A stretch of DNA of 64,000 nucleotides, taken from IMG/VR virus record IMGVR_UViG_3300005573_000052; one strand, 5' to 3'. The translations under genes were made by a program, and so were the position numbers. Position 1 is the first letter of the stretch, and each line of letters begins with the position of its first letter. Source of the stretch: a virus. A model generated the notes under the pieces. It was not told where the DNA came from, made no database searches, and saw only the letters and a program-made list of their open reading frames with translations. Of this stretch, positions 1 through 62,696 are shown in pieces.

Positions 1-407
1 TCGGCGCAGTTGCGCGAACAGGGGTATTGCGGCGTGGCGAGTTGGTCCAAGATGGATAAAGCCATTGCGACCAATTCACCCACGGCGGAGGGTCTCTCCG
101 ACAAGCTCACCTAAGAACCATTCTTAGCCAAACTTTTCAAGACCCGCCCAAAGCCTAGCAGCCAAAGCGGGTTTTTTCTTTGACATATCACATAACTCGG
201 GTAGGCACTCCCCGAGACTAAAGAACTAGAGTCACCGCAGCCGGGCGAGAGCTATGTCCTTGAATCTCGCTTTACCCCACGGGAGGGCGCTATCCCGCGA
301 CTTTTGCCTGCTTTCCACTACGAGAGCAAGGGTTTCAGAGTAAACGATACGATTGCAGGGGAGAGTGGTTTGGTAAGCAAAACCCAAAGACCTCCCCTTT
401 ATTTTCT

Positions 408-479
408 GGCCCATTCGATAATCAGCTATGTCGGCGTGTTTTCACCACGCAGTAGGGAGGGCGGCACTCCCATGGGCTA
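408..479 (+). tRNA. tRNA-Glu(TTC)
   Basis: GGCCCAT/ATGGGCT acceptor; GCGTG-TT TTC AC-CACGC; T-loop GGCGGCA. Confidence 0.8.
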
Positions 480-480
480 A

Positions 481-555
481 GCCTCAGAGATGTTGACAGA
501 TGCATGTCAGTCCGCCAGACTGAATGACCCGGAGCGTTGCCGGGCTGGGGCACCA
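481..555 (+). tRNA. tRNA-Gly(GCC)
   Basis: GCCTCAG/CTGGGGC ACCA; TCAGT-CC GCC AG-ACTGA. Confidence 0.85.
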
Positions 556-561
556 ATTTAT

Positions 562-641
562 CCCTCGTTAGCTCAGTCGGGTTAAGAGCAGCCCGCTTTT
601 AACGGGTAGGTCGCGTTGTTCCCAACACGCACGGGGGACCA
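562..641 (+). tRNA. tRNA-Lys(TTT)
   Basis: GCTC/GAGC D stem; CCCG-CT TTT AA-CGGG; ACCA end. Confidence 0.85.
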
Positions 642-709
642 TTCCTGTTAGACAGATTTCGGACCAGCGGTCCATAAACCTCTAACGACTGGGTGTATAT
701 TACGGCGAC

Positions 710-1708
710 ATGTCCAACAAACGTCGCACAAGCGCCATATGGCAAATGCCATCAGATCAGTTCAAGACCATCGTTGCTCAGAGTTTTACTCTGACAGAGG
801 TTCTTTCGCATTTCTCAATGCGCAACGTAGGTAGTAACAATCTCACCCTCAAGCGTCGCATCAAGGAGGAAGGAGTAGACATCTCTCATTTTAGACGAAA
901 GGGTGGTGGTCGAAAGGGTCCGCGAGGCATGACACTCGAAGAGTGTATGTCCACCGTATTTATCGAAGGAAAGGTGGGATGTAAAAGCTCCGTGAGGCGT
1001 TACCTGAGAAGGTTCAAGTTGGTAGAAGAAAAATGTGCCATATGCTCACTGGGGCTAGAATGGAACGGCCAACCTCTTACACTTCAATTGGATCATATTA
1101 GTGGAGATTCTACGGACGACAGAGTGGAAAACTTGCGTTGGATATGTCCCAACTGCCACAGCCAGACAGATACCTACACCGGTAAGGCGAACAAAGGCCG
1201 GGTAGGGGCTAAAATCTTTTCACTTCCTAAAAGGACCGTTCCCACTGCCAACGAAACTTTGGTTATTACCGACAACGGAGAGACAAACATAGTCAAACGG
1301 GCTTCAATGACACGGGCCGAGATTAACGCCAAACACCGTAGCCATTGGCCATCCAAGGAGACATTGAGTGCCAAGGTATGGGAGAAGCCTCTCACTCACC
1401 TGAAAGACGAGTTTGGGTTCAAATCTATTACCTCGTTAAAGCAAATGATCAAGTTGTATCAAATACAAGCACCTCCTGTCGGATTCTGGGCTCGTTTGAA
1501 AGCCGGTTGGTCACGCGACCAAGCTATCAACCCTCCCACGCAGGCTCCGAAAAGATGCCTTCGTAAATTCACTGACGATCAAGTGCGTGAAATTCGCTCT
1601 CGCCTCGATAAAGGAGACAAACCGGCGGCTCTGGCTAGGGCCTATGGATGTAGCCACAAGACGATGCGAGATATACGAGACCGTCAACGATACGTTTCCG
1701 TCGTCTAA
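710..1708 (+). CDS. HNH homing endonuclease with C-terminal HTH
   Basis: CAIC...LQLDHISG...NLRWICPNCHSQT motif; inserted in tRNA array; GGTGTATA upstream. Confidence 0.85.
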   Translation: MSNKRRTSAIWQMPSDQFKTIVAQSFTLTEVLSHFSMRNVGSNNLTLKRRIKEEGVDISHFRRKGGGRKGPRGMTLEECMSTVFIEGKVGCKSSVRRYLRRFKLVEEKCAICSLGLEWNGQPLTLQLDHISGDSTDDRVENLRWICPNCHSQTDTYTGKANKGRVGAKIFSLPKRTVPTANETLVITDNGETNIVKRASMTRAEINAKHRSHWPSKETLSAKVWEKPLTHLKDEFGFKSITSLKQMIKLYQIQAPPVGFWARLKAGWSRDQAINPPTQAPKRCLRKFTDDQVREIRSRLDKGDKPAALARAYGCSHKTMRDIRDRQRYVSVV

Positions 1709-1772
1709 TCTTTCCAGTCCCGGAGGCCATTCCTAGCGCGACCTTTCCAAGGCGTGATGAATCCCGAGTTTT

Positions 1773-1846
1773 GACGGATTAGCCAAGCGGCGAGGCCACC
1801 CTCTGCAAAAGGGTTCAGACCAGTTCGACTCTGGTATCCGTCTCCA
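1773..1846 (+). tRNA. tRNA-Cys(GCA)
   Basis: GACGGAT/ATCCGTC TCCA; CT GCA AA loop; TTCGACT T-loop. Confidence 0.95.
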
Positions 1847-1938
1847 CCTTTCCCCCTCCGTAAGATGTCCCTTAGCAGGGTTTAAGATACGGCGTGCGTG
1901 CTGACAAGGCAAAGCGCAAGGGATGCGAGGAAAATTTT

Positions 1939-2018
1939 GGGGCACGGGGCTGCTTGGCGTGGCCACCTCTTTTGCACAGAGGTTAATCAGCAGGTTTCGA
2001 TCATCTGGTGCTCCACCA
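1939..2018 (+). tRNA. tRNA-Ala(TGC)
   Basis: GGGGCAC/GTGCTCC ACCA with G3:U70; CCTCT-TT TGC AC-AGAGG. Confidence 0.9.
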
Positions 2019-2024
2019 ATTTAT

Positions 2025-2135
2025 GCGGCCTCGGATAAACGGGGTTCCATGGTAGCTTGAAGCGGGGGTGCACTCCTGCCATTGGCCATGAGAGCCGTTA
2101 CGTCCGGCATGGGTGAAAATCCTTGAGTCCGCCCA
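2025..2135 (+). ncRNA. Atypical tRNA-like RNA with long internal stem
   Basis: GCGGCCTC/GAGTCCGC ends plus CCA, T-like loop TGAAAAT, internal CATGG/CCATG stem; no clear anticodon arm. Confidence 0.4.
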
Positions 2136-2140
2136 ATTTA

Positions 2141-2215
2141 GCCTCAGAGATGTTGATGGACACATGCGAGTTTTCCAAACTTGACTACTCGGATCGTTAC
2201 CGGGCTGGGGCACCA
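2141..2215 (+). tRNA. tRNA-Gly(TCC)
   Basis: Paralogue of 481-555; CGAGT-TT TCC AA-ACTTG. Confidence 0.9.
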
Positions 2216-2216
2216 T

Positions 2217-2302
2217 CGTGTATTAGACCGTTAAAGACGCGGGGCAGATTGTAAACCTGTCGCCTTCGGGCCGACTCAGAGCGTTACTGAGATACACGAC
2301 CA
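2217..2302 (+). tRNA. tRNA-Tyr(GTA)
   Basis: CGTGTAT/ATACACG ACCA; TT GTA AA loop; long variable arm. Confidence 0.85.
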
Positions 2303-2308
2303 TTTCAC

Positions 2309-2381
2309 TGGCAGATAGCTTAAGTAGTGAAGCCCGCGATTGATAATCGCGAGAGTATCAGTGCAAATCTGATTCTGCCAA
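2309..2381 (+). tRNA. tRNA-Ile(GAT)
   Basis: TGGCAGA/TCTGCCA; CGCGA-TT GAT AA-TCGCG; CCA not encoded. Confidence 0.9.
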
Positions 2382-2390
2382 ATTTTCCAC

Positions 2391-2464
2391 AGGACCGACA
2401 GGTATGTTATCGGCGAGCACTCCAAACGCTACGCGAGTTAGTTAAATTCTAACCGGTCCTGCCA
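2391..2464 (+). tRNA. tRNA-Trp(CCA)
   Basis: AGGACCG/CGGTCCT GCCA; CT CCA AA loop. Confidence 0.75.
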
Positions 2465-2465
2465 T

Positions 2466-2537
2466 GGAGTCCGGTCTAGTGGCCAGTTTCCCCTGAAGAG
2501 GGAGACGGACGCGATGCGATCTCGCGGGGCTCCACCA
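2466..2537 (+). tRNA. tRNA-Phe(GAA)
   Basis: GGAGTCC/GGGCTCC ACCA; TTCCC-CT GAA GA-GGGAG. Confidence 0.8.
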
Positions 2538-2545
2538 TTTTACGT

Positions 2546-2628
2546 TGCAGTCACAAGCCGAATGACGCTGAGGGTCTTCATACGTCCCGCGAAAGCTATG
2601 CCGAGTGAAACTCTCGGGGCTGCATCCA
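2546..2628 (+). tRNA. tRNA-Met/Ile2(CAT) with extended variable arm
   Basis: TGCAGTC/GGCTGCA TCCA; GGGTC-TT CAT AC-GTCCC. Confidence 0.7.
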
Positions 2629-2633
2629 ACTTT

Positions 2634-2708
2634 CACTCCGTGGGACATTGGTTGTCCGCCAGTTTTGGGAACTGGATCAAGTGTGTCCGATTCACACCGG
2701 GGTGACCA
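2634..2708 (+). tRNA. tRNA-Pro(TGG), 8-nt anticodon loop
   Basis: C1:G72 and A73 (Pro identity); CCAGT-TTTTGGGA-ACTGG. Confidence 0.7.
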
Positions 2709-2786
2709 TCTTGAGGGAAACGCGGGTTCAACCCCCGCCGGGGCCACGGGGCCTCGTCGTCTAGACAGGTTAAGAAACCCTCTAAC
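2709..2786 (+). ncRNA. Circularly permuted tRNA mimic (3' half precedes 5' half)
   Basis: GAGGG, AAAC, T-arm GCGGG-TTCAACC-CCCGC, acceptor hairpin CGGGGCC-ACGG-GGCCTCG, D-arm, CCCTC. Confidence 0.75.
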
Positions 2787-2792
2787 TTTTTT

Positions 2793-2870
2793 GGCGCGTT
2801 AGCTCAGTCCATTCAGAGCAGCCCGTTGTCTGCGGGAAGGCCATGGGAGAGAAGCCCATACGCGCCGCCA
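2793..2870 (+). tRNA. tRNA-Asp(GTC)
   Basis: GGCGCGT/ACGCGCC GCCA; CCCG-TT GTC TG-CGGG. Confidence 0.9.
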
Positions 2871-2874
2871 TTTT

Positions 2875-3032
2875 CTCCTGTGTCCGTCTGATTATCCCGT
2901 GCGTAGGGACTCAGCGCTAGTTGACAGCAACGCCACCGCTTTGTGGCTTAGGCTTAGCTAAACCCAATGCGTCCCGTAGTAGGTGAAAATTAGCTCTCAT
3001 CGCCCGGGCTACGCGATTGGTAGACACAGGAG
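2875..3032 (+). ncRNA. Unknown structured RNA of about 158 nt
   Basis: Perfect 10-bp terminal stem CTCCTGTGTC/GACACAGGAG; inner GCGTAG/CTACGC and GGGAC/GTCCC pairings. Confidence 0.55.
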
Positions 3033-3046
3033 GATTCATTTCGTTT

Positions 3047-3135
3047 GGGGGATTAGCTCAGTTGATTAGAGCGCTTCGTTTACACCGAAGAGGCCGAATA
3101 GGTTCACGCGGGTTTGAATCCTGCATCCCTCACCA
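3047..3135 (+). tRNA. tRNA-Val(TAC), long variable arm
   Basis: CTTCG-TT TAC AC-CGAAG; ACCA. Confidence 0.9.
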
Positions 3136-3141
3136 TTTTAT

Positions 3142-3238
3142 TGCTCAGACCCAGATGGCATGTTAGCTGGCTTCGACTGTTAATCGAATGCGGGGAGATA
3201 GTCTCAAACCAACGGTGGGGCGGCACCACCCTGAGCAG
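3142..3238 (+). tRNA. tRNA-Asn(GTT), long variable arm
   Basis: TGCTCAG/CTGAGCA; TTCGA-CT GTT AA-TCGAA. Confidence 0.85.
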
Positions 3239-3239
3239 C

Positions 3240-3315
3240 GGGAGACGAATCGTCTAGTGACGATGTTTGCACGACACGCAAAATCAGTAGGGTGCAATCC
3301 CCTAGTCTCCCACCA
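3240..3315 (+). tRNA. tRNA-Val(GAC)
   Basis: GGGAGAC/GTCTCCC ACCA; TTTGC-AC GAC AC-GCAAA. Confidence 0.85.
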
Positions 3316-3321
3316 TTTTAC

Positions 3322-3400
3322 CGGTCTGTAGGGTAGCCTGCCTTATCCCGCTTGCATGGGGTGCAAGAAATCGCCAGTTGAAATCTGGCCAGACCGACCA
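3322..3400 (+). tRNA. tRNA-Pro(GGG)
   Basis: CGGTCTG/CAGACCG ACCA; CTTGC-AT GGG GT-GCAAG. Confidence 0.9.
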
Positions 3401-3406
3401 TTTTAT

Positions 3407-3483
3407 CAGCACGTAGCTCAGCCTAGCAGAGCGATTGCCTCGGGTGCAATAGGTCGGGGATGCGATTTCCTCCGTGCTGACCA
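3407..3483 (+). tRNA. tRNA-Pro(CGG)
   Basis: CAGCACG/CGTGCTG ACCA; ATTGC-CT CGG GT-GCAAT. Confidence 0.92.
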
Positions 3484-3644
3484 TTTCCGGGCTCGCAAGG
3501 GTCCGTTGTCATTCCACCTACGATGCAGCTTTACCGCTGACGCAACCGGAGGCAACAACGGAATGCACTTCCAGTGTCGTCCAAGCCTCGATAGGCGGCA
3601 CTCGAACAGGCAGGATACTACTGCGGGAGTCGTAGACATTTTTT

Positions 3645-3890
3645 GGGCCGTCAGTCGGCGCGCAACGGGGACAAACCCACCGGTAATCAACCCGGTCGCG
3701 ACCGGCACTAGCGAGCCGTGCGATTGCCTACGGGAGCGCGCGGAGAGGATGCGATTTCCTCGCGGTCCACTTTTGTTTTACCGTGCTGAAGTTCAGCGTA
3801 AGGCCCGGGTTGATCACCGGGAGATAACGCGAGGAGAACACTCCCCGGAAGGAGAAGGTAGGAGGTGAAATACCTCTCGGCACGACCAAT
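3645..3890 (+). ncRNA. Pair of tRNA-like RNAs with mutually complementary internal segments
   Basis: Unit A GGGCCGT/GCGGTCC plus T-arm GAGGA-TGCGATT-TCCTC; unit B CGTGCTG/CGGCACG ACCA plus T-arm GGAGG-TGAAATA-CCTCT; CCGGTAATCAACCCGG in A is complementary to CCGGGTTGATCACCGG in B. Confidence 0.55.
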
Positions 3891-3949
3891 TCCGCGCTCA
3901 TTCTGGAAAGTCTGTAAAGCCGACGCGGGCAAAGTATCGGCGCTTTCAT

Positions 3950-4026
3950 GGTCCTCTGATGTAAATGGATAAGCATACCGCCCTTTGAAGGCGAGAGTCA
4001 CGTTTGCCAAGCGTGGGGGACTGCCA
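3950..4026 (+). tRNA. tRNA-Gln(TTG)
   Basis: GGTCCTC/GGGGACT GCCA; CT TTG AA loop. Confidence 0.85.
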
Positions 4027-4033
4027 ATTTTAC

Positions 4034-4109
4034 TGCTCCGTGGGATAACATCTAGTCCACACCCCTCTGAAGGGTCGAGGCGTCCGTGAGACTCGGGCCG
4101 GGGCAGCCA
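4034..4109 (+). tRNA. tRNA-Gln(CTG)
   Basis: TGCTCCG/CGGGGCA GCCA; CT CTG AA loop. Confidence 0.88.
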
Positions 4110-4113
4110 TTTT

Positions 4114-4189
4114 GGGCCGTTAGCTCATTCAGCAGAGTATCGCTATGGCATAGCGGAGGTGGGGAGAGCAAAGCTCCCACGGTCCACCA
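4114..4189 (+). tRNA. tRNA-Ala(GGC)
   Basis: GGGCCGT/ACGGTCC ACCA, G3:U70; TCGCT-AT GGC AT-AGCGG. Confidence 0.88.
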
Positions 4190-4451
4190 ATTTCAAGCAG
4201 GAGAGCGTTCGCGGCAGAGATTGCTACGGCCATCTGTCGAGGAAGTTCGCGCCAGAAAAGAAGCCGACTGGGAGGGTGGCTTGGCTTGACCGCCGTCATT
4301 CTTACCGATGACCACCACCCGCCAACACCACATGGTATCTGCAACCCGAAAGCGCCCGAGGGTAGTTCTTCCCGCCAGCAGGGCATGGTTGGGGCTCAGA
4401 CAAATGAACGCATGAAACAGAAGCGCGGCTACGTCCACTTGAAAATTTTAC

Positions 4452-4538
4452 GGATCGGTCCCTATAGCAGCGATTAGCCCTGACTCTTAATCAGGTTGGC
4501 GAAAGCCTACGACGTGGGTGCGAGTCCCACCCGGTCCA
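4452..4538 (+). tRNA. tRNA-Lys(CTT), long variable arm
   Basis: GGATCGG/CCGGTCC; CTGA-CT CTT AA-TCAG. Confidence 0.85.
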
Positions 4539-4539
4539 C

Positions 4540-4613
4540 GGTAGAGACAGCAAGAGCTGAGGACGGTTTCATAAGCCGTGCCGAGTAGGTTGCAATTACC
4601 TCCTCTACCACCA
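4540..4613 (+). tRNA. tRNA-Met/Ile2(CAT)
   Basis: GGTAGAG/CTCTACC ACCA; ACGGT-TT CAT AA-GCCGT. Confidence 0.8.
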
Positions 4614-4617
4614 TTTT

Positions 4618-4693
4618 GCTGACCAAGCATAGACAGCGATGCACCACATTGGTAATGTGGATATGATGGGCGCACATCCCATGGTCAGCTCCA
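4618..4693 (+). tRNA. tRNA-Thr(GGT)
   Basis: GCTGACC/GGTCAGC TCCA; CCACA-TT GGT AA-TGTGG. Confidence 0.92.
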
Positions 4694-4699
4694 TTTTTG

Positions 4700-4785
4700 G
4701 GGTTGTGGCGTAACTGGATAGCCGTGCGAGGTCGAGAGCCTCGTGGTCGTGAGACCGTAGGGGTCCGAGTCCCCTCTTCCCCACC
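4700..4785 (+). tRNA. tRNA-Leu(GAG)
   Basis: CGAGG-TC GAG AG-CCTCG; variable arm; ACCA. Confidence 0.8.
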
Positions 4786-4791
4786 ATTTTC

Positions 4792-4866
4792 GGGCGTATG
4801 ACGTAACTGGATAACCGTGCTGAGTTTAGACCTCAGATTTTGCAGGTCCGAGTCCTGCTACGCCTA
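4792..4866 (+). tRNA. tRNA-Leu(TAG), short variable region
   Basis: GGGCGTA/TACGCCT; CTGAG-TT TAG AC-CTCAG. Confidence 0.85.
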
Positions 4867-4867
4867 C

Positions 4868-4942
4868 GGGGTCATCGAATAAGAGTAGTTCACCAGATTC
4901 TCAATCTGGAAATCGGAGTGCGTTGGCTCCGTGGCCCCACCA
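4868..4942 (+). tRNA. tRNA-Glu(CTC)
   Basis: GGGGTCA/TGGCCCC ACCA; CCAGA-TT CTC AA-TCTGG. Confidence 0.9.
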
Positions 4943-4947
4943 ATTTA

Positions 4948-5030
4948 CGGCTAGTGGATAAGGGAAACTGGTTACAACCGCGAAACTTAAAATTTCGTAT
5001 CCGCTGTGGGTCCGAATCCCACCTAGCCGA
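4948..5030 (+). tRNA. tRNA-Leu(TAA)
   Basis: CGGCTAG/CTAGCCG; CGAAA-CT TAA AA-TTTCG. Confidence 0.85.
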
Positions 5031-5035
5031 CTTTC

Positions 5036-5127
5036 GGGCGTATGGTGTAACAGAAACACGGAGGTCTCAAAAGCCTCTTTTGGGGCTCGCCCCCATATTT
5101 ACGGAGCATTGCCGTATACGCCCACCA
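5036..5127 (+). tRNA. tRNA-Leu(CAA)
   Basis: GGGCGTA/TACGCCC ACCA; GAGGT-CT CAA AA-GCCTC. Confidence 0.9.
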
Positions 5128-5132
5128 TCTTT

Positions 5133-5269
5133 CAGCGGTAGCATATCGGTCAATGCTGTCCTCGCAACATGGGACTAGTCTGCCCAGCCTCCAAAGGCCA
5201 CGGATTAAGGTTGGGCAGAGAGACGCCCGCAAAGAGCGTTGAAGTGGGGTTCAAATCCCCTCACGCTGA
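5133..5269 (+). ncRNA. tRNA-like RNA with two extra hairpins in the variable region
   Basis: CAGCG/CGCTG ends, D-arm AGCAT/ATGCT, TTCAAAT T-arm, long CTGCCCAGCC/GGTTGGGCAG hairpin; anticodon ambiguous. Confidence 0.5.
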
Positions 5270-5350
5270 ATTCACCTATAGGGTTGACGGGCGGTAGCGC
5301 AGTTTGGCGACACCGGGTCGCTCGCAAACTGCTCCGATACCCTCCTTTTC

Positions 5351-5425
5351 GCGCATGTAGCTCAAAGGAAGAGCAGAGGACTCATAATCCTTTGGTTGAG
5401 ATGTCGGAATTCTCCGTGCGCACCA
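5351..5425 (+). tRNA. tRNA-Met/Ile2(CAT)
   Basis: GCGCATG/CGTGCGC ACCA; GAGGA-CT CAT AA-TCCTT. Confidence 0.9.
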
Positions 5426-5429
5426 TTTT

Positions 5430-5507
5430 GGTTCCTACTCCTAGATCAGCGAGGACCTCGACTCGTAATCGAGAACTGAGGCGGCTGCGATGCCGCAGGA
5501 ACCTCCA
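5430..5507 (+). tRNA. tRNA-Thr(CGT)
   Basis: GGTTCCT/AGGAACC TCCA; CTCGA-CT CGT AA-TCGAG. Confidence 0.82.
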
Positions 5508-5526
5508 TCTTTTTTTACTTTTTCAC

Positions 5527-5556
5527 TTGACACCGGCCACCCAATCGGGCTATGGT
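5527..5556 (+). promoter_or_regulatory. Sigma70-type promoter for the Y RNA-Ro60 unit
   Basis: TTGACA-N18-TATGGT, 28 nt before the first Y RNA. Confidence 0.7.
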
Positions 5557-5583
5557 ATCCGTGTTCATTCTCACTTTCCCTTT

Positions 5584-5662
5584 TGCCGTGGTGCCAGACG
5601 ACCAGTTCCTCGCTGTAATCGACCGGACGAAAGTCCACTCTGGTCGTCGCCTGTTCCCGGCA
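5584..5662 (+). ncRNA. Y RNA 1 (minimal)
   Basis: TGCCG/CGGCA terminal stem; shared motif TGGTGCCAGA / TCGCCTGTTCC; GACGACCA/TGGTCGTC stem; next to Ro60. Confidence 0.75.
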
Positions 5663-5670
5663 GTTATTTT

Positions 5671-5758
5671 TCTGCGATGGCGTCAGATGACGGTTACTTC
5701 TTCAATCCATAACTGAATCGCCCGCAAGGGCTAACCGTTCTCGCTTGTTCCTCGCAGA
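5671..5758 (+). ncRNA. Y RNA 2
   Basis: TCTGCGA/TCGCAGA; TGGCGTCAGA / TCGCTTGTTCC; ACGGTTA/TAACCGT. Confidence 0.78.
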
Positions 5759-5772
5759 TTCTCTTTCTCACT

Positions 5773-5922
5773 TTTGGAGTGGCGTAGAGCTAACCAGTTC
5801 CTCGAATACGGATCGAGAGGTCGGGGTTCAAATCCCCGGTGTCGCTTCGGCGACACTAGTGTAACGGTAGCACGCTTAGTGGTCGCAAGGCCACGCTCTG
5901 GTGCTCGCTTGTTCCCTCCAAA
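5773..5922 (+). ncRNA. yrlA: Y RNA 3, YrlA-like with permuted tRNA domain
   Basis: TTTGGAG/CTCCAAA; TGGCGTAGA / TCGCTTGTTCC; T-arm CGGGG-TTCAAAT-CCCCG, then closed acceptor GTGTCGC-TTCG-GCGACAC, then D-arm GTGT-AACGGTA-GCAC. Confidence 0.85.
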
Positions 5923-5973
5923 TTCATTTCCTCGTTGCGCAGCAATTACGCCGCCGACGATGGCACTAGACCC

Positions 5974-7293
5974 ATGAAGACCAATACAAAATCCCCCCGC
6001 GCCAAAGTGTTTACCCACGAAGGTGCTCCCGCTGCCCACGCCACCGCCAAGCAGCAACTCCGCCGCTCCGTCATGTCCTGCATGCTCTGGGAGTCGGAAT
6101 TCCATGAAAGCGGCGAAGATATCGCCCAGCGAATCGCCTCGCTCGTTGCCAAGTGCAAACCTGAGGACGTGGCACTGATCGCTCGCGAAGCCCGCGAACA
6201 GATGAAACTGCGACATGTCCCGCTGCTCCTCGTGCGTGAAATGGCCCGCCTGCCTTCTCACCGCCCTTACGTGGCCGACACGCTTAACGCCGTCATCCAG
6301 CGCGCCGACGAACTCTCCGAGTTTCTGGCTATCTACTGGAAGTCGGGCAAAGACCAGCCTCTCGCCGCTCAGGTCAAAAAGGGACTGGCTCGGGCCTTCA
6401 CCCGATTCGATGAGTATGCCCTGAGCAAATATGACCGCGCCGGTGATGTCAAACTGCGGGATGCTCTCTTCCTCTGTCATGCCAAGCCGCAGGACAAGAA
6501 GCAAGAACGCCTGTGGAAACGACTCGTCAATGGCGAATTGAAGCCTGCCGGAACTTGGGAAGAGCAGCTTTCCGCCGGTAAGGACAAAAAGGCAGTGTTC
6601 ACCAAGTTGATCAAAGACGGTGAACTGGGCGCTCTCGCCCTGCTCCGCAACCTGCGCGGCATGACCGAGGCGGGAGTTAGCCACGAAATCATCACCCAAG
6701 CATTGGCTGGCATGAAAACCGAGCGGGTTCTCCCGTTTCGCTTCATCTCTGCCGCACGCTACGCCCCCCAGTTCGAGGCCGAATTGGAACAGGCGATGTT
6801 CAAGTGTCTTGAGGGAGTGGACAAGCTGAAGGGCTACACCATTCTGCTTGTGGACGTGTCGGGCTCCATGGATTCACCGATCAGCGCCAAGTCTGACCTG
6901 ACGCGTATCGACGCTGCTTGCGGACTCGCCATCCTATTGCGCGAAATCTGCGAACGGGTGGATATCTGCACGTTCTCCAGCGGGATAGTCGGAGTCCCTC
7001 CTCGCCGAGGATTCGCGCTGCGGGATGCCATCAAGAACTCGCAGCCCCATGCAAGCACCGATCTAGGTAGAGCACTCGATACCCTCAAGTATGGAACGGG
7101 TAAAGATCGCATCGTCGTCATCACGGACGAACAGTCCCATACGGCGGTTAATTCCCCCAAGACCACGGGTTACATGCTCAACGTCGCTTCAGCGGCAAAC
7201 GGAGTGGGTTACGGGGCCTGGAACCATATCGACGGTTGGAGTGAGAGTTGTGTGAAATTCGTGGCCGAGCTGGAGAAGCAAAGCGCCGATTGA
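5974..7293 (+). CDS. rsr: Ro60/TROVE domain RNA-binding protein
   Basis: LRRSVMSCMLWE, RHVPLLL, LALLRNLR, vWA MIDAS DVSGSM and VVITDEQS; start moved to MKTNTK. Confidence 0.95.
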   Translation: MKTNTKSPRAKVFTHEGAPAAHATAKQQLRRSVMSCMLWESEFHESGEDIAQRIASLVAKCKPEDVALIAREAREQMKLRHVPLLLVREMARLPSHRPYVADTLNAVIQRADELSEFLAIYWKSGKDQPLAAQVKKGLARAFTRFDEYALSKYDRAGDVKLRDALFLCHAKPQDKKQERLWKRLVNGELKPAGTWEEQLSAGKDKKAVFTKLIKDGELGALALLRNLRGMTEAGVSHEIITQALAGMKTERVLPFRFISAARYAPQFEAELEQAMFKCLEGVDKLKGYTILLVDVSGSMDSPISAKSDLTRIDAACGLAILLREICERVDICTFSSGIVGVPPRRGFALRDAIKNSQPHASTDLGRALDTLKYGTGKDRIVVITDEQSHTAVNSPKTTGYMLNVASAANGVGYGAWNHIDGWSESCVKFVAELEKQSAD

Positions 7294-7316
7294 CCGGGCT
7301 GAAAGGTCAAGTTTAC

Positions 7317-7349
7317 AGAGGGGGCGAACAAGCCTCCTCTTTCTTTTTT
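7317..7349 (+). terminator. Intrinsic terminator after Ro60
   Basis: AGAGGGGGC...GCCTCCTCT hairpin followed by a T-run. Confidence 0.65.
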
Positions 7350-7351
7350 AC

Positions 7352-7427
7352 GGCTCGTTGCCTCAGTGTTCACAGGAGTGCCTTTGTAGCGCACCATTCG
7401 GCGGTTAAAATCCGCCACGAGCCTCCA
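7352..7427 (+). tRNA. tRNA-Thr(TGT)
   Basis: GGCTCGT/ACGAGCC TCCA; TT TGT AG loop. Confidence 0.8.
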
Positions 7428-7434
7428 TTTTCAC

Positions 7435-7596
7435 GCCCTAGTAGCTCAGGCCCTACCAAATATCGGGTATCAGAAGAGCGCGCTCATTAGTTGGTCACCC
7501 AAGCGAACGGCACTTAGTGAACTCATCAATTGAGGGTTTGCGATGCTGCCGTTCGACAAGCGAGGTCGTCGGTGCCAAATCCGACCTAGGGCTCCA
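7435..7596 (+). tRNA. tRNA (Thr-type acceptor) with a large anticodon-arm insertion and D-loop hairpin
   Basis: GCCCTAG/CTAGGGC TCCA, GCTC/GAGC D stem, AGGTC variable loop, GTCGG/CCGAC T stem; insertion contains CGAACGGCA/TGCCGTTCG stem. Confidence 0.65.
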
Positions 7597-7602
7597 TTTC
7601 AT

Positions 7603-7681
7603 GGTGACAAAGGCAGAAGTAACTCAAAGCGCGGCCCTGTGAAGGCCGTTTAAGCGGGTGTGAGACCCGTTTGTCACCCCA
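7603..7681 (+). tRNA. tRNA-His(GTG)
   Basis: G-1:C73 8-bp acceptor; CGGCC-CT GTG AA-GGCCG. Confidence 0.92.
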
Positions 7682-7687
7682 ATTCAC

Positions 7688-7764
7688 GCGACACTCGGCA
7701 ACCGAATAGTCACCCTGCTTGCGGAGCAGAATCAGTCCCAGTTTGAATCTGGGGTGTCGCACCA
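7688..7764 (+). tRNA. tRNA-Arg(GCG)
   Basis: GCGACAC/GTGTCGC ACCA; CTGC-TT GCG GA-GCAG. Confidence 0.82.
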
Positions 7765-7772
7765 TTTTTCAT

Positions 7773-7855
7773 GCGAGCGTAGCCGAAGGGAGCTTCTATC
7801 TCCTTCCCCGTAACCGGAGCTGCAAATGGAGGTTCGACTCCTCTCGCTCGTGCCA
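7773..7855 (+). tRNA. tRNA-Arg(TCT), no D-arm at the normal position
   Basis: GCGAGCG/CGCTCGT GCCA; GGGAG-CT TCT AT-CTCCT; TTCGACT T-loop. Confidence 0.75.
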
Positions 7856-7859
7856 TTTC

Positions 7860-7935
7860 GCGCTGGTCGGCAATGTATAGTCAACCTCGTTTCGACCGAG
7901 AATCAGTGTGGGTTAGAGTCTCACCCGGCGCACCA
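7860..7935 (+). tRNA. tRNA-Arg(TCG)
   Basis: GCGCTGG/CCGGCGC ACCA; CTCG-TT TCG AC-CGAG. Confidence 0.85.
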
Positions 7936-7941
7936 TTTCAC

Positions 7942-8022
7942 GCGAACGTATCCCCTCGGTTTCCTAAACCGGCGAAAGGGTAATCGGAATCCATGGAGGA
8001 TCGTCCCCTCTCGTTCGCACCA
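7942..8022 (+). tRNA. tRNA-Arg(CCT), no D-arm at the normal position
   Basis: GCGAACG/CGTTCGC ACCA; TCGGT-TT CCT AA-ACCGG. Confidence 0.78.
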
Positions 8023-8099
8023 CTTGAACCCCATGAAGGTTCCACCCGGCGAGCCTCGGACAGAGCGGTTACAGGCCGAATCACAGCGTTAATTTTTAC

Positions 8100-8189
8100 G
8101 GAGAGGTGGCAGAGTGGCCTATTGCACTGAGCTTGAAACTCAGAACAGAGTAATATCTGTCGCGAGTCCGAATCTCGCTCTCTCCTCCA
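8100..8189 (+). tRNA. tRNA-Ser(TGA)
   Basis: GGAGAGG/TCTCTCC; CTGAG-CT TGA AA-CTCAG; long variable arm. Confidence 0.92.
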
Positions 8190-8193
8190 TCTT

Positions 8194-8283
8194 AGAGAGC
8201 CAACTGAACGAGGTTCAGGACTGCTTGGAAAGCAGCTCGGGCCGCGCAAGCGACCTACGGGGCAGCACCGTGACTCTCTGCCA
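8194..8283 (+). tRNA. tRNA-Ser(GGA)
   Basis: AGAGAG/CTCTCT GCCA; CTGC-TT GGA AA-GCAG; long variable arm. Confidence 0.85.
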
Positions 8284-9409
8284 TTTTCACCGGTCGTCCA
8301 CGTCTCCCTCGAAAAGTCGAAGACAACAATCCAAATCGTATCATCGCGTCACGTGTTACCTCGTGATTAAATCCAATGGCTAATCCAGCCTGTCGAAGAG
8401 ACCCTTTCGTTTTAAACACTTCGTAAGCTAATTGTGCCTGCTCGGCTGTTGGACGATGAAGTGGTTTACGAATGCGTTTTTGGCTCACGAGAGCCTGTTC
8501 ATGAGTATATCCCGCATGGCGTCGAACCCAATAACCTATAGGAGGTAACGCAACTCCGTATCGCTTGGCCCAACGACGAACCGAGTTACCGTTTACGCCA
8601 TAATCCTTGGCTATGTTCTCTATGGACTTACTCCACACAAGGATGGTCAACTCTTCCTTGGAAGGCCACACTACCTTACGGGAGGCCACTGCGGCAGCAG
8701 CTCGATTGCCATATATGGGCTTGTCCAGAGAACGCAAATATTCTTTCGCCTCGGGAGTCATAGCCCTAACGGATCGTTCTTTGGGGGATATCCGTATGTG
8801 CACGTCACCGAGGTCTCGCGACGTATCCGGTTCGTCTGTAGACCGAAAAACCAACCCCTCTTTGGCCATGATTCCATGAATGGTGTCGTAATTACGACCC
8901 TTAGGGGCCAAACCCAATCGCCGACACACATCACTCGGACTAGTGCATTGGGGGATTGCCTCAATATACATCTGGCGAGATACCTTGACTGTTCGTTTAC
9001 GCGTGGCGGCCCCCTTGTGATTAGGGGCTAATCCATGACAATTTCGACAAAGAACCTGAAGATTCTTTAACTCGTTATTATTATGGTTACCGTCTACGTG
9101 ATGTAACTCTATCGGTATCGGCTCTCCCTGCCATCTGTCATTACCGCATCTCTCACAGACAGGACTTTTAAGACCCTCTCGAAAAAGACGCTTCTTCAAA
9201 TTATCGCTCGCGAGAGGATACTGATTAGATAGGTAAACCTCGATAGGGCGTCCACTGTAAGGGGGCCAGTGAGACGTGTCAATCTGATTCTCGGCAAGGA
9301 GTCGTCTAATACGTTTTTTGTCTCCTCCTCCAAGAAGACGCAAAAGCATATTGCAGGAGGTTGATTCGGCGGCAAGTTGACGTAGTTGGTCGATATTAAG
9401 GGTAGTCAT
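8255..9409 (-). CDS. HNH homing endonuclease (antisense to the tRNA array)
   Basis: CERC...IELHHVDGNHNNNELKNLQVLCRNCH; start MTTLNI; GGTGTATC motif at 9420-9427 on the minus strand. Confidence 0.85.
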   Translation of the reverse strand: MTTLNIDQLRQLAAESTSCNMLLRLLGGGDKKRIRRLLAENQIDTSHWPPYSGRPIEVYLSNQYPLASDNLKKRLFREGLKSPVCERCGNDRWQGEPIPIELHHVDGNHNNNELKNLQVLCRNCHGLAPNHKGAATRKRTVKVSRQMYIEAIPQCTSPSDVCRRLGLAPKGRNYDTIHGIMAKEGLVFRSTDEPDTSRDLGDVHIRISPKERSVRAMTPEAKEYLRSLDKPIYGNRAAAAVASRKVVWPSKEELTILVWSKSIENIAKDYGVNGNSVRRWAKRYGVALPPIGYWVRRHAGYTHEQALVSQKRIRKPLHRPTAEQAQLAYEVFKTKGSLRQAGLAIGFNHEVTRDAMIRFGLLSSTFRGRRGRPVKMAESHGAAP

Positions 9410-9475
9410 GTTCACCCTAGATACACCGCTGAAGACCCGGTTTGTGTGCAATTCTCCACTTTCCGCCATTTTTAC

Positions 9476-9565
9476 GGTAGGTGAATCCGTGCAGGTCACG
9501 GAGCGGCCCTCGAAAAGCCTGCGCGCCCGCAAGGACGTTTTCTGCGACTGAAACGCCTACCGCCA
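9476..9565 (+). tRNA. tRNA-Ser(CGA)
   Basis: GGTAGG/CCTACC GCCA; CT CGA AA loop; long variable arm. Confidence 0.78.
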
Positions 9566-9741: not shown

Positions 9742-10365
9742 ATGAGCACCATCCTCGACAAGCAGATTTGCCTCAAGCTAAACAAGAACTGGCAAGGCGT
9801 AGGCTTTGTCACGATAAAACAAGCTGTCACCTTCCTCTGCTCGGAGCAGGACGGCGAGCATCCCGGTTTCGCGCTCGATATCGAGATGGTCACAAATGAG
9901 AACGGCGAATCGGTCCTGTCCTACGCCAACCCGACCAAGTGGGAGGACTGGCTGAAGCTTCCCGTGCGCGAGTCCGACCTTGCTATCACGACTGGTCGCG
10001 GGCAAATTCGCGCTCCGCTGGTAGTTGTCTGTGCCAACTATGCCAAGGTTCCGACCCGCACCACGCGCTGGTCCACGGGCAATGTCCATCGCCGCGACAA
10101 TTACACCTGCGCCTACACGGGCGAGAAGCTCAGTCACGCAACCGCCACGGTTGACCATATCCAGCCCCGTTCACGCGGCGGCAAGGACGCGTGGGAAAAT
10201 ACCGTGTCGTGTCACAAGCGCGTCAACCTGCTCAAGGCCGACCGCACGCCCGAGGAAGCCGGACTGAAACTGCTCGTCAAGCCCAAGGCTCCGCCCATCA
10301 TGCCCGTGGTCATCACGGCGGATGAGGCGCGGCACGAGGCGCAGCGACACTTCCTGATTAACTAG
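9742..10365 (+). CDS. HNH endonuclease (McrA-like)
   Basis: RDNYTCAYTG...TVDHIQPRSRGG...N..KA. Confidence 0.85.
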   Translation: MSTILDKQICLKLNKNWQGVGFVTIKQAVTFLCSEQDGEHPGFALDIEMVTNENGESVLSYANPTKWEDWLKLPVRESDLAITTGRGQIRAPLVVVCANYAKVPTRTTRWSTGNVHRRDNYTCAYTGEKLSHATATVDHIQPRSRGGKDAWENTVSCHKRVNLLKADRTPEEAGLKLLVKPKAPPIMPVVITADEARHEAQRHFLIN

Positions 10366-10379
10366 CCCAGCCCATCAAT

Positions 10380-10412
10380 CCCTCTGACCTTAACCGGCGG
10401 AGGGATTTTTTT
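10380..10412 (+). terminator. Putative intrinsic terminator
   Basis: CCCTC...GAGGG hairpin followed by a T-run. Confidence 0.55.
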
Positions 10413-10452
10413 GTTGACATCGTATGACCAATTTGTCTATCATGAAGTAAAC

Positions 10453-11004
10453 GTGACCCAACTGACCTTCAACCAAGTTCTTCATCGAGAGTATTTGGGC
10501 TCGCCCGTCTGGAAAGCAAAACGAGAAGAGGCCATAAATCATTATGGGCCAGTCTGTTCTCGATGCAAAGAATACGGAACAGACGTTCATCATAAAACTT
10601 ACATTCGGTGGGGTGGCAATGAATTAATGGAAGACCTTGAAATCATGTGTCGTGAGTGCCACGACGCGCATCATCGGGTAGAAAAGGCAACCCGACAAAA
10701 GAAAATCAAGAAAAAAGGTCTACGCAGAGAAGCTATCTACCGATACCTGTCTCCAAGCCAAAAGAAAATCCTAATTGACAGGTTCTCTCTGTCTGGAGAT
10801 AAGGACCTCTACGGAAGAATTGTTTTAAGTAACTCCTTGCCAATAATTAACGAAGCGTTGAAAATTCTTGGTTGTGATTACGCCTATGGACCAAAACAAA
10901 TTTTCAGACCTCCTGTAAGCAAAAAAGAAAGAGAAAAAAATCTTCAACGGGTAAAAAGACAAGAGGAGGCTTACAAACTCGCAATCTCAGGTAAATTACC
11001 GTAA
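10453..11004 (+). CDS. HNH endonuclease
   Basis: CSRC...VHHKTY...CRECHDAHH; promoter TTGACA-N18-TATCAT at 10414-10443. Confidence 0.75.
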   Translation: MTQLTFNQVLHREYLGSPVWKAKREEAINHYGPVCSRCKEYGTDVHHKTYIRWGGNELMEDLEIMCRECHDAHHRVEKATRQKKIKKKGLRREAIYRYLSPSQKKILIDRFSLSGDKDLYGRIVLSNSLPIINEALKILGCDYAYGPKQIFRPPVSKKEREKNLQRVKRQEEAYKLAISGKLP

Positions 11005-15291: not shown

Positions 15292-15335
15292 AACCCATTG
15301 AGAATGGGTGTATATAGGTGAAACCCCACCTCTCC

Positions 15336-30090: not shown

Positions 30091-30269
30091 TGACTGTTTC
30101 ACTCCGCTACCCCAAGTGTATCTCCTGCTCTCAACCCCTTTTTCCAGTCCAGCTAGCCCAAGGTCCAAGGTAACGTAACCCACCCCGCCCATGCCCAACG
30201 CACGTTAGCTCGGGTAAAAATAACAAGAGAATCTGTCGAATCTTGTTCTGGCGGGTGTATAGTAGGCCG

Positions 30270-62627: not shown

Positions 62628-62696
62628 GGGAGTTGGATGAAAGTGACTTTGGTTCTGACTTTATGCGGGGAGATACACCGTGGGAAGGAGGGCTTA

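What the first reader, a model, noticed from the sequence alone, without database searches (positions are those of the whole stretch)
2709..2786. Free-standing circularly permuted tRNA: T-arm, closed acceptor hairpin, then D-arm
Seen: a tRNA 3' half (GAGGG AAAC GCGGG-TTCAACC-CCCGC CGGGGCC A) lies before its matching 5' half (GGCCTCG TC GTCT...AAGAAA CCCTC). The 7-bp acceptor is closed by a 4-nt loop, the anticodon stem GAGGG/CCCTC pairs the two ends, and there is no anticodon loop. This is the same topology as the tRNA domain of Y RNA 3, but without a Ro-binding stem. It keeps a canonical TTC T-loop, unlike most true tRNAs here. Inference: an unchargeable elbow-mimic decoy, or the precursor of a permuted tRNA needing ligation as in red algae and some archaea.
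Basis: partly seen in the sequence, partly recalled or inferred. Interest (0 to 1): 0.82.

Follow-up and report, generated by a model that had tools for sequence, protein, structure and literature searches.

The report
Handle-less sealed tRNA-Glu mimic RNA
Between two tRNA genes of this uncultured phage lies a 70-base gene for an "inside-out" tRNA body with a sealed amino-acid end and no anticodon; it matches the tRNA-shaped head of bacterial Y RNAs but lacks their Ro60-binding handle, and the same head recurs in many phages that have no detectable Ro60 gene.

Summary
From 5' to 3' the element has an anticodon-stem strand, a 4-nt variable loop, a perfect T arm (TTCAACC), a 7-bp acceptor hairpin closed by ACGG, U8-C9, a D arm with G18G19, A26, and the other anticodon-stem strand. 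No dinucleotide shuffle of the window reached its descriptor score (0 of 100).

It fills one slot of the tRNA operon. It starts 4 nt after tRNA-Pro(UGG) and ends 10 nt before the next tRNA, so there is no room for a Ro60-binding handle, and none is present.

Its D arm and 4-nt variable loop are tRNA-Glu-like.

A narrow sequence pattern found 30 closed-acceptor copies of this Glu-type head in IMG/VR. About 13 stand free inside tRNA arrays, and nine of those genomes are complete or nearly so with no TROVE hit. About 9 sit on Ro handles. Cultured phages Lacusarx and Psa21 carry unannotated copies. One orthologous pair shows three compensatory pair changes and no broken pair.

Best reading: a working, unchargeable tRNA-Glu body mimic, that is, a YrlA-type head without its handle. 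Its target is unknown. The "permuted pre-tRNA needing ligation" idea is not supported.

This scan has noted stand-alone permuted tRNA mimics on other phage DNA before. I found no published description.

The parts
2634..2708 (+). Upstream neighbour tRNA-Pro(UGG) ending in ACCA. Its 3' processing would set the 5' side of the element.
   Evidence: ARAGORN; Rfam tRNA 46.6 bits
2709..2712 (+). 4-nt leader TCTT
2713..2717 (+). Outer (anticodon-stem-like) helix, 5' strand GAGGG, equivalent to tRNA 39-43
2718..2721 (+). 4-nt variable loop AAAC (tRNA-Glu type, no position 47; C48 can pair with G15)
2722..2738 (+). T arm GCGGG / TTCAACC / CCCGC with a canonical T54-T55-C56-R57-A58 loop
2739..2756 (+). 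Sealed acceptor hairpin: CGGGGCC (66-72), loop ACGG, GGCCTCG (1-7); 7 pairs
   Evidence: the MFE fold draws six of the seven pairs
2757..2777 (+). U8-C9, D arm GTCT / AGACAGGTTA / AGAA (G18G19 present; G10.A25 mismatch), then A26. This region is closest to tRNA-Glu D arms.
2778..2782 (+). Outer helix, 3' strand CCCTC, equivalent to tRNA 27-31
2783..2792 (+). Trailer TAACTTTTTT, T-rich like the other spacers of this array. It is not called as a terminator.
2793..2867 (+). Downstream neighbour tRNA (anticodon GTC read by eye). RNase P cleavage at its 5' end would set the 3' side of the element.
   Evidence: Rfam tRNA 39.9 bits
5770..5925 (+). Y RNA 3, approximate limits read by eye. It has the same permuted head (5813-5879), but on a Ro handle (GGCGTAG...CAGTTCCTC / CGCTTGTTCC). 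Included for comparison.
5935..7293 (+). Ro60/TROVE-vWA gene, 3.15 kb downstream on the same strand
   Evidence: Pfam TROVE E 2e-18

Best explanation
This is a small non-coding RNA gene, a handle-less member of the YrlA-type tRNA-mimic kind. Inferred: it is transcribed as part of the phage tRNA operon. It would be released as an RNA of about 70-85 nt by the same cuts that free its neighbours, namely 3' maturation of tRNA-Pro and RNase P at the next tRNA. Shown by sequence and fold: it can form an L-shaped tRNA body with a canonical elbow and a tRNA-Glu-like core (TC-GTCT D arm, U11-A24, A46, no residue 47). Its acceptor end is sealed by a 4-nt loop and it has no anticodon loop, so it can be neither charged nor decoded. 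Inferred mechanism: it occupies a protein that reads the tRNA elbow or the tRNA-Glu core. It would act as a decoy or competitor that cannot be cleaved in the anticodon loop or attacked at a CCA end, or as an adaptor for the same unknown effector that the heads of YrlA Y RNAs bind. It would act without Ro60. A minor possibility is RNase P nicking in the acceptor loop, because the acceptor has 7 pairs as in M. smegmatis YrlA.
For: The structure is present and beyond chance. It occupies one slot between two tRNAs with spacers of 4 and 10 nt. There is no Ro motif and no flank pairing (duplex z = +1.3), whereas the Y RNA heads next to Ro genes show the GGCGTAG..GTTACTTC / CGCTTGTTCC handle. The head recurs. 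A sequence-only pattern gave 50 matches in IMG/VR. Of the 35 that do not overlap a called tRNA, 30 have a closed acceptor. About 13 of these abut tRNAs inside arrays. Across 18 free-standing copies, acceptor stems are 91% paired against 48% with permuted partners, and outer stems 91% against 57%, with 3-6 pair types per column. The orthologous pair L236 / L246 (Psa21) differs at 10 of 69 positions: three compensatory pairs, four loop changes, no broken pair. Many caps are UUCG, GCAA or GAAA tetraloops. Nine genomes at least 95% complete that carry free-standing heads have no TROVE hit. The heads are not recent copies of the resident tRNA-Glu genes. The D-arm region is nearest to tRNA-Glu in 30 of the top 40 of about 1,200 tRNA bodies. 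In this phage almost all true tRNAs have lost the canonical T loop, while this element and Y RNA 3 keep it. Literature: YrlA heads fold as tRNA, are modified by TruB and DusA, and have an unknown elbow-binding effector; the 7-bp M. smegmatis head is cut by RNase P (PMC4201824; bioRxiv 10.1101/312249).
Against: No close relative of this phage exists (best Ro identity 65%), so conservation of this particular copy is untested. This copy is the only one of the 18 with a G10.A25 mismatch, and it has A22 instead of G22, which could mean early decay. The Psa21 relative D6 lacks the element at the same spot, so it is dispensable there. The 18 copies were chosen partly for closed acceptors, which inflates that one statistic. 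A negative TROVE Pfam search does not exclude very divergent Ro-like proteins.
Confidence: 0.55

Rival explanations
1. It is a non-functional by-product of recombination in the tRNA array. The junction of two tandem tRNA-Glu copies (3' half, spacer, 5' half) survived after the outer halves were deleted, perhaps helped by the homing endonucleases that fill this array. It is still transcribed and folded but does nothing.
For: Tandem Glu(UUC)-Glu(CUC) pairs are common in phage arrays, and their junctions score as this fold. The dimeric-tRNA origin model has been proposed for YrlA (bioRxiv 10.1101/312249). HNH and LAGLIDADG genes surround the array. Homing endonuclease SegB cuts inside tRNA genes and drives segmental amplification (PMC13096335). 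This copy has a D-stem mismatch. The element is absent at the same spot in phage D6.
Against: Two precise deletions ending exactly at the anticodon stem would be needed, repeatedly, in unrelated phages. The other 20 of 21 pairs and all tertiary-contact bases are intact. The class shows compensatory change between orthologues and tetraloop caps. The copies are unlike the resident tRNA-Glu genes.
Confidence: 0.22
2. It still belongs to the Ro60 system of this phage. It would be a head detached from its handle that works together with the head-less Y RNAs 1 and 2 and Ro60, for example by delivering the same effector in trans.
For: It lies on the same strand 3.15 kb upstream of Ro60, within the 4-kb window used to call YrlA RNAs (PMC4201824). 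Relatives L002 and L011 carry a Glu-type head on a Ro handle next to a standard head. In this window two of the three Y RNAs have handles without heads.
Against: No complementarity to Y RNA 1 or 2 was seen by eye, and this was not searched formally. The same head stands alone in nine complete or near-complete genomes with no TROVE hit.
Confidence: 0.12
3. It is a circularly permuted pre-tRNA-Glu that is circularised at its ends and then opened at the acceptor loop to give a working tRNA, as in red algae and some archaea.
For: The gene order is the same (3' half before 5' half) and the acceptor has 7 pairs. RtcB is present in 3 of 9 complete genomes that carry such heads.
Against: No anticodon loop can be formed. 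Every join of trailer and leader gives C33 or A33, and the full tails would give a 14-nt loop. No bulge-helix-bulge is possible. The tails are not conserved in the class. No splicing endonuclease is known in bacteria (bioRxiv 10.1101/312249). Tetraloop caps argue for a permanently closed end. Normal tRNA-Glu genes coexist in the same arrays.
Confidence: 0.03
4. It is a cis-acting processing or termination signal for the operon and not a trans-acting RNA.
For: A T6 run follows 4 nt after the closing stem. Some class members sit at array edges.
Against: The terminator scan does not call it, and all spacers in this array are T-rich. Neighbouring tRNAs already provide processing sites. A full set of tRNA tertiary bases is not needed for a terminator.
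Confidence: 0.05

Closest known systems
YrlA (Y RNA-like A) of bacteria and actinobacteriophages: tRNA-like effector domain (Chen et al. 2014, PMC4201824; crystal structure, Wang et al. 2018, bioRxiv 10.1101/312249)
   Same: The topology is identical: T arm, closed acceptor-like stem-loop, D arm, all closed by an anticodon-like stem, with no anticodon loop. The tRNA tertiary bases are conserved. It is encoded near Ro60 on the same strand. The 7-bp acceptor matches M. smegmatis YrlA, which RNase P cleaves.
   Different: There is no Ro60-binding handle and no room for one. It sits as a unit of a tRNA operon. Copies of the same head occur in phages with no TROVE gene. No Rfam family matched at E <= 10.
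Circularly permuted tRNA genes of Cyanidioschyzon merolae and some archaea (as summarised in bioRxiv 10.1101/312249)
   Same: The 3' half is encoded before the 5' half, the acceptor is initially closed, and the ends pair as an anticodon stem.
   Different: There are no sequences that could become an anticodon loop, no bulge-helix-bulge, and no known bacterial splicing endonuclease. Many class members are capped by tight tetraloops.
Junctions of tandem tRNA genes (dimeric tRNA transcripts; origin model of Sim and Wolin 2018, cited in bioRxiv 10.1101/312249)
   Same: The T arm of one tRNA is followed by the D arm of the next. Such junctions score with my covariance model.
   Different: Here the complementary outer halves are absent, the neighbours are unrelated tRNAs (Pro and a GTC-anticodon tRNA), and the spacer is only 4 nt.
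Bacterial tRNA-Glu
   Same: It shares the U8-C9, GTCT D stem, A14-G15, G18G19, the 4-nt variable loop ending in AC, and the T loop. E. coli GluRS reads major identity elements in the augmented D stem (PMC2777447). The exact positions U11-A24, U13-G22..A46 and the missing residue 47 are from my own knowledge.
   Different: It has no anticodon loop and no free CCA end. It has A22 and A25 instead of G22 and C25.
b7a-tRNA and other tRNA-like RNAs linked to RtcB (Burroughs and Aravind 2016, as cited in bioRxiv 10.1101/312249)
   Same: It is a tRNA-shaped non-coding RNA proposed to act with RNA repair enzymes.
   Different: b7a-tRNA has normal tRNA order. RtcB is present in only 3 of 9 complete genomes that carry the free-standing head.

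Membership tests
YrlA-type Y RNA | tRNA-like domain in the order T arm, closed acceptor-like hairpin, D arm, closed by an anticodon-like stem | tested here: met
   Sequence, MFE fold (it draws a 3-bp hairpin in place of the D arm), descriptor. The 66-bit score with my model R1 is by construction, because this element was one of its four training sequences.
YrlA-type Y RNA | tRNA tertiary-contact bases conserved (T-loop T54-A58, C56, G18G19, U8, A14, 15-48 pair) | tested here: met
   Read directly; class table
YrlA-type Y RNA | Ro60-binding module: terminal helix with a GNCGAA-like motif (in these phages GGCGTAG...GTTACTTC with CGCTTGTTCC) | tested here: not met
   The flanks are tRNAs. There is no motif and no flank duplex (z = +1.3), whereas the Ro-adjacent heads carry the handle motif and most give negative flank-duplex z-scores.
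YrlA-type Y RNA | Encoded within 4 kb of, and on the same strand as, a Ro60 orthologue | tested here: met
   TROVE gene 5935-7293 (+), 3.15 kb away
YrlA-type Y RNA | Match to a curated Rfam Y RNA model | tested here: not met
   No Rfam family other than chance-level hits at E <= 10. The window's own Y RNA 3 does not match either, so the test is weak.
YrlA-type Y RNA | Bound by Ro60; modified by TruB and DusA | not testable with these tools
   Needs immunoprecipitation and modification mapping
Functional tRNA-Glu | Anticodon loop and free 5'/3' acceptor ends with CCA | tested here: not met
   No loop between 27-31 and 39-43. The acceptor is closed by ACGG. Not called by ARAGORN even at relaxed thresholds, nor by Rfam tRNA.
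Functional tRNA-Glu | tRNA-Glu core: TC-GTCT D arm and 4-nt variable loop | tested here: met
   30 of the 40 nearest D-arm regions among about 1,200 tRNA bodies are Glu (the loci are enriched for this motif). AAAC variable loop. Deviations: A22 and A25.
Circularly permuted pre-tRNA (algal/archaeal type) | Leader and trailer form a bulge-helix-bulge, and ligation restores a 7-nt anticodon loop | tested here: not met
   The tails UCUU and UAACUUUUUU do not pair. No join gives U33. The tails vary across the class.
Two-piece (permuted) tmRNA | Tag reading frame and pseudoknots after the 5' acceptor strand | tested here: not met
   The element is 70 nt and the next tRNA starts 10 nt later. No tmRNA call here. 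Only a 10-bit T-arm match to tmRNA.

The most novel reading that the evidence does not exclude
Stand-alone, sealed tRNA-Glu body mimics form a widespread and undescribed class of phage small RNAs that work without Ro60. They would titrate or recruit a host factor that reads the tRNA-Glu core and elbow, for example a tRNA-targeting defence nuclease, GluRS or glutamyl-tRNA reductase. The same factor would be the long-sought effector of the tRNA-like heads of YrlA Y RNAs. In this phage, whose own tRNAs have shed the canonical elbow, the element would be the bait that keeps that factor busy.
Probability: 0.25. Interest if true: 0.8.

Novelty: new variant of a known kind. Interest (0 to 1): 0.6.

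Why it matters
The effector that binds the tRNA-shaped head of YrlA Y RNAs was still unknown in the papers read here (2014, 2018). Finding the same head without any handle inside tRNA operons, including in complete phage genomes with no TROVE hit, suggests the head has a job of its own. It also makes that job testable in cultured phages (Sphingobium phage Lacusarx, Pseudomonas phage Psa21). The Glu-type core narrows the candidate partners. The element also fits the current picture of phage tRNA arrays as counter-measures to tRNA-targeting defences: a body mimic with no anticodon loop and no CCA end could not be cut at the anticodon loop or attacked at the CCA end. For annotation, these genes are missed by tRNA finders and by Rfam, and they are unannotated in the GenBank records of both phages.

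Tried and rejected
- **Close relatives of the window phage.** I looked for them to test conservation of this copy. INPHARED gave nothing in near or distant mode. Ro-based locus searches in IMG/VR and JGI metagenomes gave at most 65% amino-acid identity, and every head next to those Ro genes sits on a Ro handle.
- **Direct sequence search.** blastn and nhmmer with the element against the loci gave only one weak hit.
- **Covariance model R1.** It finds the heads but also scores tandem-tRNA junctions at 25-45 bits, so score alone cannot separate them. I therefore filtered with ARAGORN overlap and a closed-acceptor test.
- **Ligation model.** I tested all joins of trailer and leader for a 7-nt loop with U33, and none works. 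L098 could give UUCUAAC, but the other copies do not, so I treat that as chance.
- **RtcB co-occurrence.** RtcB is present in 3 of 9 complete genomes, so there is no obligate link.
- **Terminator reading.** The scan does not call one here.
- **L123 pair.** It is ambiguous, because an Rfam tRNA hit spans the two units. I did not count it as firm.
- **Recent copy of the phage's own tRNA-Glu.** Rejected, because the stems differ.
- **Other cultured phages.** Searches with L127, L245 and L258 found nothing.

Full report
**What is there.** The window is part of a large uncultured phage; neither megablast nor blastn found a match in INPHARED. From about 180 to 8200 on the + strand it carries a dense operon of tRNA and tRNA-like genes. 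Most units end in CCA followed by a T-rich spacer.

Inside the operon, at 5935-7293, is a Ro60 gene (TROVE plus vWA). Three Y RNAs lie in front of it. Only the third has a tRNA-like head.

The reported element lies at 2713-2782. From 5' to 3' it reads:
- GAGGG (outer stem strand)
- AAAC (variable loop)
- GCGGG-TTCAACC-CCCGC (T arm)
- CGGGGCC-ACGG-GGCCTCG (sealed acceptor hairpin)
- TC
- GTCT-AGACAGGTTA-AGAA (D arm)
- A
- CCCTC (outer stem strand)

ViennaRNA returns the outer stem, the T arm and six of the seven acceptor pairs as the minimum-free-energy structure, at 47% of the ensemble, but draws a 3-bp hairpin in place of the D arm. The energy z-score is -1.0, so energy alone does not set it apart from shuffled sequence.

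**Is it more than chance?** I wrote a descriptor for this topology. It requires a T arm with a TTCRA-type loop, an adjoining closed hairpin, a D arm with GG, and a closing stem. It finds exactly two top-scoring hits in the window: this element and the head of Y RNA 3. In 100 dinucleotide shuffles of the window it found none at that score. Bases that the descriptor did not demand are also in place: U8, A14, G15 with C48, A21, G53-C61 and purine 57.

**It stands free.** tRNA-Pro(UGG) ends 4 nt upstream, and a tRNA with Rfam score 39.9 bits starts 10 nt downstream. No stem can form between the flanks (duplex z = +1.3). The handle motif shared by the Ro-adjacent heads in 26 IMG/VR and 80 metagenome loci is absent; that motif is GGCGTAG...GTTACTTC at the 5' side and CGCTTGTTCC at the 3' side. 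ARAGORN does not call the element even at relaxed thresholds, and no Rfam family matches at E <= 10. The terminator scan does not call it either.

**What kind of tRNA it imitates.** The D arm begins TC-GTCT-AG and the variable loop has four bases ending in AC. Among about 1,200 distinct tRNA bodies in the fetched loci, 30 of the 40 nearest D-arm regions belong to tRNA-Glu. Those loci are enriched for this motif, so the figure is indicative only. In E. coli the augmented D stem of tRNA-Glu carries major GluRS identity elements (PMC2777447).

The phage's own tRNA-Glu(CUC), at 4868-4942, has different stems and a non-canonical T loop. Only about 2 of 26 tRNA genes in the window keep a TTCRA T loop, whereas this element and Y RNA 3 do.

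**The element belongs to a recurrent class.** No close relative of this phage exists in the collections; the best Ro identity is 65%. I therefore searched for the head by sequence pattern only.

- **Broad pattern.** It showed three contexts for a closed Glu-type head: on Ro handles, on a second handle with ACAGCAA, and with no handle inside tRNA arrays.
- **Narrower pattern.** AAAC, the T loop, fixed spacing and TCGTCTA returned all its IMG/VR matches, 50 in total.
  - 15 overlap called tRNAs, mostly tandem Glu-Glu or Gln-Gln junctions.
  - Of the other 35, 30 have a closed acceptor. About one would be expected by chance (my estimate, not a tool result).
  - About 13 of the 30 abut tRNAs inside arrays with spacers of 2-15 nt, like the window copy.
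  - About 9 sit on Ro-type handles.
  - The rest have other contexts or unclear ones.

Arrays that hold the element usually also hold ordinary tRNA-Glu genes, and the element is not a copy of them.

**Evidence for selection on the fold.** Across 18 free-standing copies:
- Acceptor stems are 91% paired, against 48% when partners are permuted among sequences (maximum 62% in 500 trials).
- Outer stems are 91% paired, against 57%.
- Each column shows 3-6 different pair types.

The acceptor figure is somewhat inflated because I kept only closed copies. The outer stem was not used to choose the copies.

More telling is an orthologous pair: a 317-kb metagenomic phage (L236) and Pseudomonas phage Psa21 (L246). 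They differ at 10 of 69 positions. Six of those differences make three compensatory pairs, one each in the outer, T and acceptor stems. Four lie in loops. None breaks a pair. The downstream flank is unalignable. Many caps are UUCG, GCAA or GAAA tetraloops, which suggests the closed hairpin is the working form.

**Independence from Ro60.** Nine genomes at least 95% complete that carry free-standing heads have no TROVE match. The control genomes gave the expected hits. A very divergent Ro-like protein cannot be excluded by Pfam alone. In any case the free heads have no handle of any kind. RtcB is present in only 3 of those 9 genomes.

**Cultured examples.** L118 is 100% identical to Sphingobium phage Lacusarx, which has two heads in tandem between tRNA-Pro and tRNA-Val. 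L246 lies in a 305,260-bp record, the same length as the Pseudomonas phage Psa21 genome, and the Psa21 record holds the head just after tRNA-Ser. In both GenBank records the heads are unannotated. The Psa21 relative D6 lacks the element at the same place, so it is an accessory gene.

**How it most likely works.**
- **Shown.** The fold, the slot in the operon, the lack of a handle, the Glu-type core, the recurrence, and structure-preserving evolution in the class.
- **Known from the literature.** YrlA heads fold like tRNA, are modified by TruB and DusA, and are thought to bind an unidentified protein that reads the elbow. The 7-bp head of M. smegmatis YrlA is cut by RNase P and receives CCA (PMC4201824; bioRxiv 10.1101/312249). 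Defences that cut tRNA loops exist, and phage tRNAs can supplement or decoy them (PMC13096335).
- **Inferred.** The RNA is freed by the processing of its neighbours. It then acts as an unchargeable and undecodable tRNA-Glu body that occupies a tRNA-reading protein, as a decoy or as an adaptor, without Ro60. I put this at about 0.55.

The main rival is a harmless relic of recombination between tandem tRNA-Glu genes, at about 0.2. It is favoured by this copy's single D-stem mismatch (G10.A25), by its A22, and by the absence of any relative to test. A detached head still serving the Ro60 system is possible, at about 0.1. The permuted pre-tRNA idea is very unlikely because no anticodon loop can be restored from the tails.

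**Comparison with relatives.** Ro-encoding relatives such as L002 and L011 carry two Y RNAs, each with a head on a Ro handle; one head is Glu-type and one is standard. This window has two handles without heads, one handle with a standard head, and the Glu-type head alone in the tRNA array. That pattern fits head and handle being separable modules.

**Novelty.** The permuted, sealed tRNA topology is known for YrlA. A stand-alone head inside tRNA operons, and its tRNA-Glu character, were not found in the searchable literature. Earlier notes of this scan describe stand-alone permuted tRNA mimics in several other phages. Those are unpublished AI notes. My census here was made independently of them and agrees. 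I class the element as a new variant of a known kind.

Noticed in passing
window 4193-4442 (+): Weak match to archaeal-type RNase P RNA (26 bits, E 2e-4, far below the gathering score), with strings resembling CR-I (GAGGAAGTTCGCGCC) and CR-V (ACAGAAGCGCGGCTA). This may be a minimal phage-encoded RNase P RNA inside the tRNA operon.
   Followed up: no
window 480-8190 (+): Only about 2 of 26 tRNA genes keep a TTCRA T loop. Most differ at position 55 or 56, and several D loops lack GG. The permuted element and Y RNA 3 keep the canonical elbow.
   Followed up: partly
window 5580-5930 (+): Three tandem Y RNAs lie behind a sigma-70-like promoter (5527-5556) and in front of Ro60. Two are handles with only small hairpins, and one has a full tRNA-like head. 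A terminator follows Ro60 at 7317-7340.
   Followed up: partly
window 710-1708, 8255-9532(-), 9742-10365, 10411-11004, 15318-16388: HNH (weak to clear Pfam matches) and LAGLIDADG homing-endonuclease-like ORFs lie in and around the tRNA operon. A TnpB/OrfB_IS605 gene lies at 30243-31508.
   Followed up: no
L036:9598-9790, L053:1796-1863 and 3674-3746, L073:337-405, L096:1458-1525, L264:2456-2525: The same sealed tRNA-like heads sit on a different handle, with flanks like GGATCnnTACAGCAAC. L036 lies in a complete 424-kb genome with no TROVE hit; the other records were not checked for TROVE.
   Followed up: no
L263:6040-6190: A permuted Glu-type head appears nested inside a normal-order tRNA-like frame. 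The outer acceptor strands AAACCAT and ATGGTTT flank it.
   Followed up: no
window 62573-62866 (+): ARAGORN at a relaxed threshold calls a permuted tmRNA (tag ANPQIVAL*). No Rfam tmRNA family reaches its gathering score, so this is probably a false call.
   Followed up: no
L267 (Lacusarx KY629563.1, record about 67090-67230) and L268 (Psa21 MK552327.1, locus 618-686): Free-standing Glu-type heads are present but unannotated in two cultured phage genomes. Phage D6 (OQ363659.1), a relative of Psa21, lacks it after the same tRNA-Ser.
   Followed up: yes
L098:5510-5582 and L232:3806-3872: Two phages whose arrays share part of their gene order each carry a free-standing head just before tRNA-Ser(GCU). 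One head is standard (TA-GCTC) and the other is Glu-type, so heads at the same position need not be homologous.
   Followed up: no
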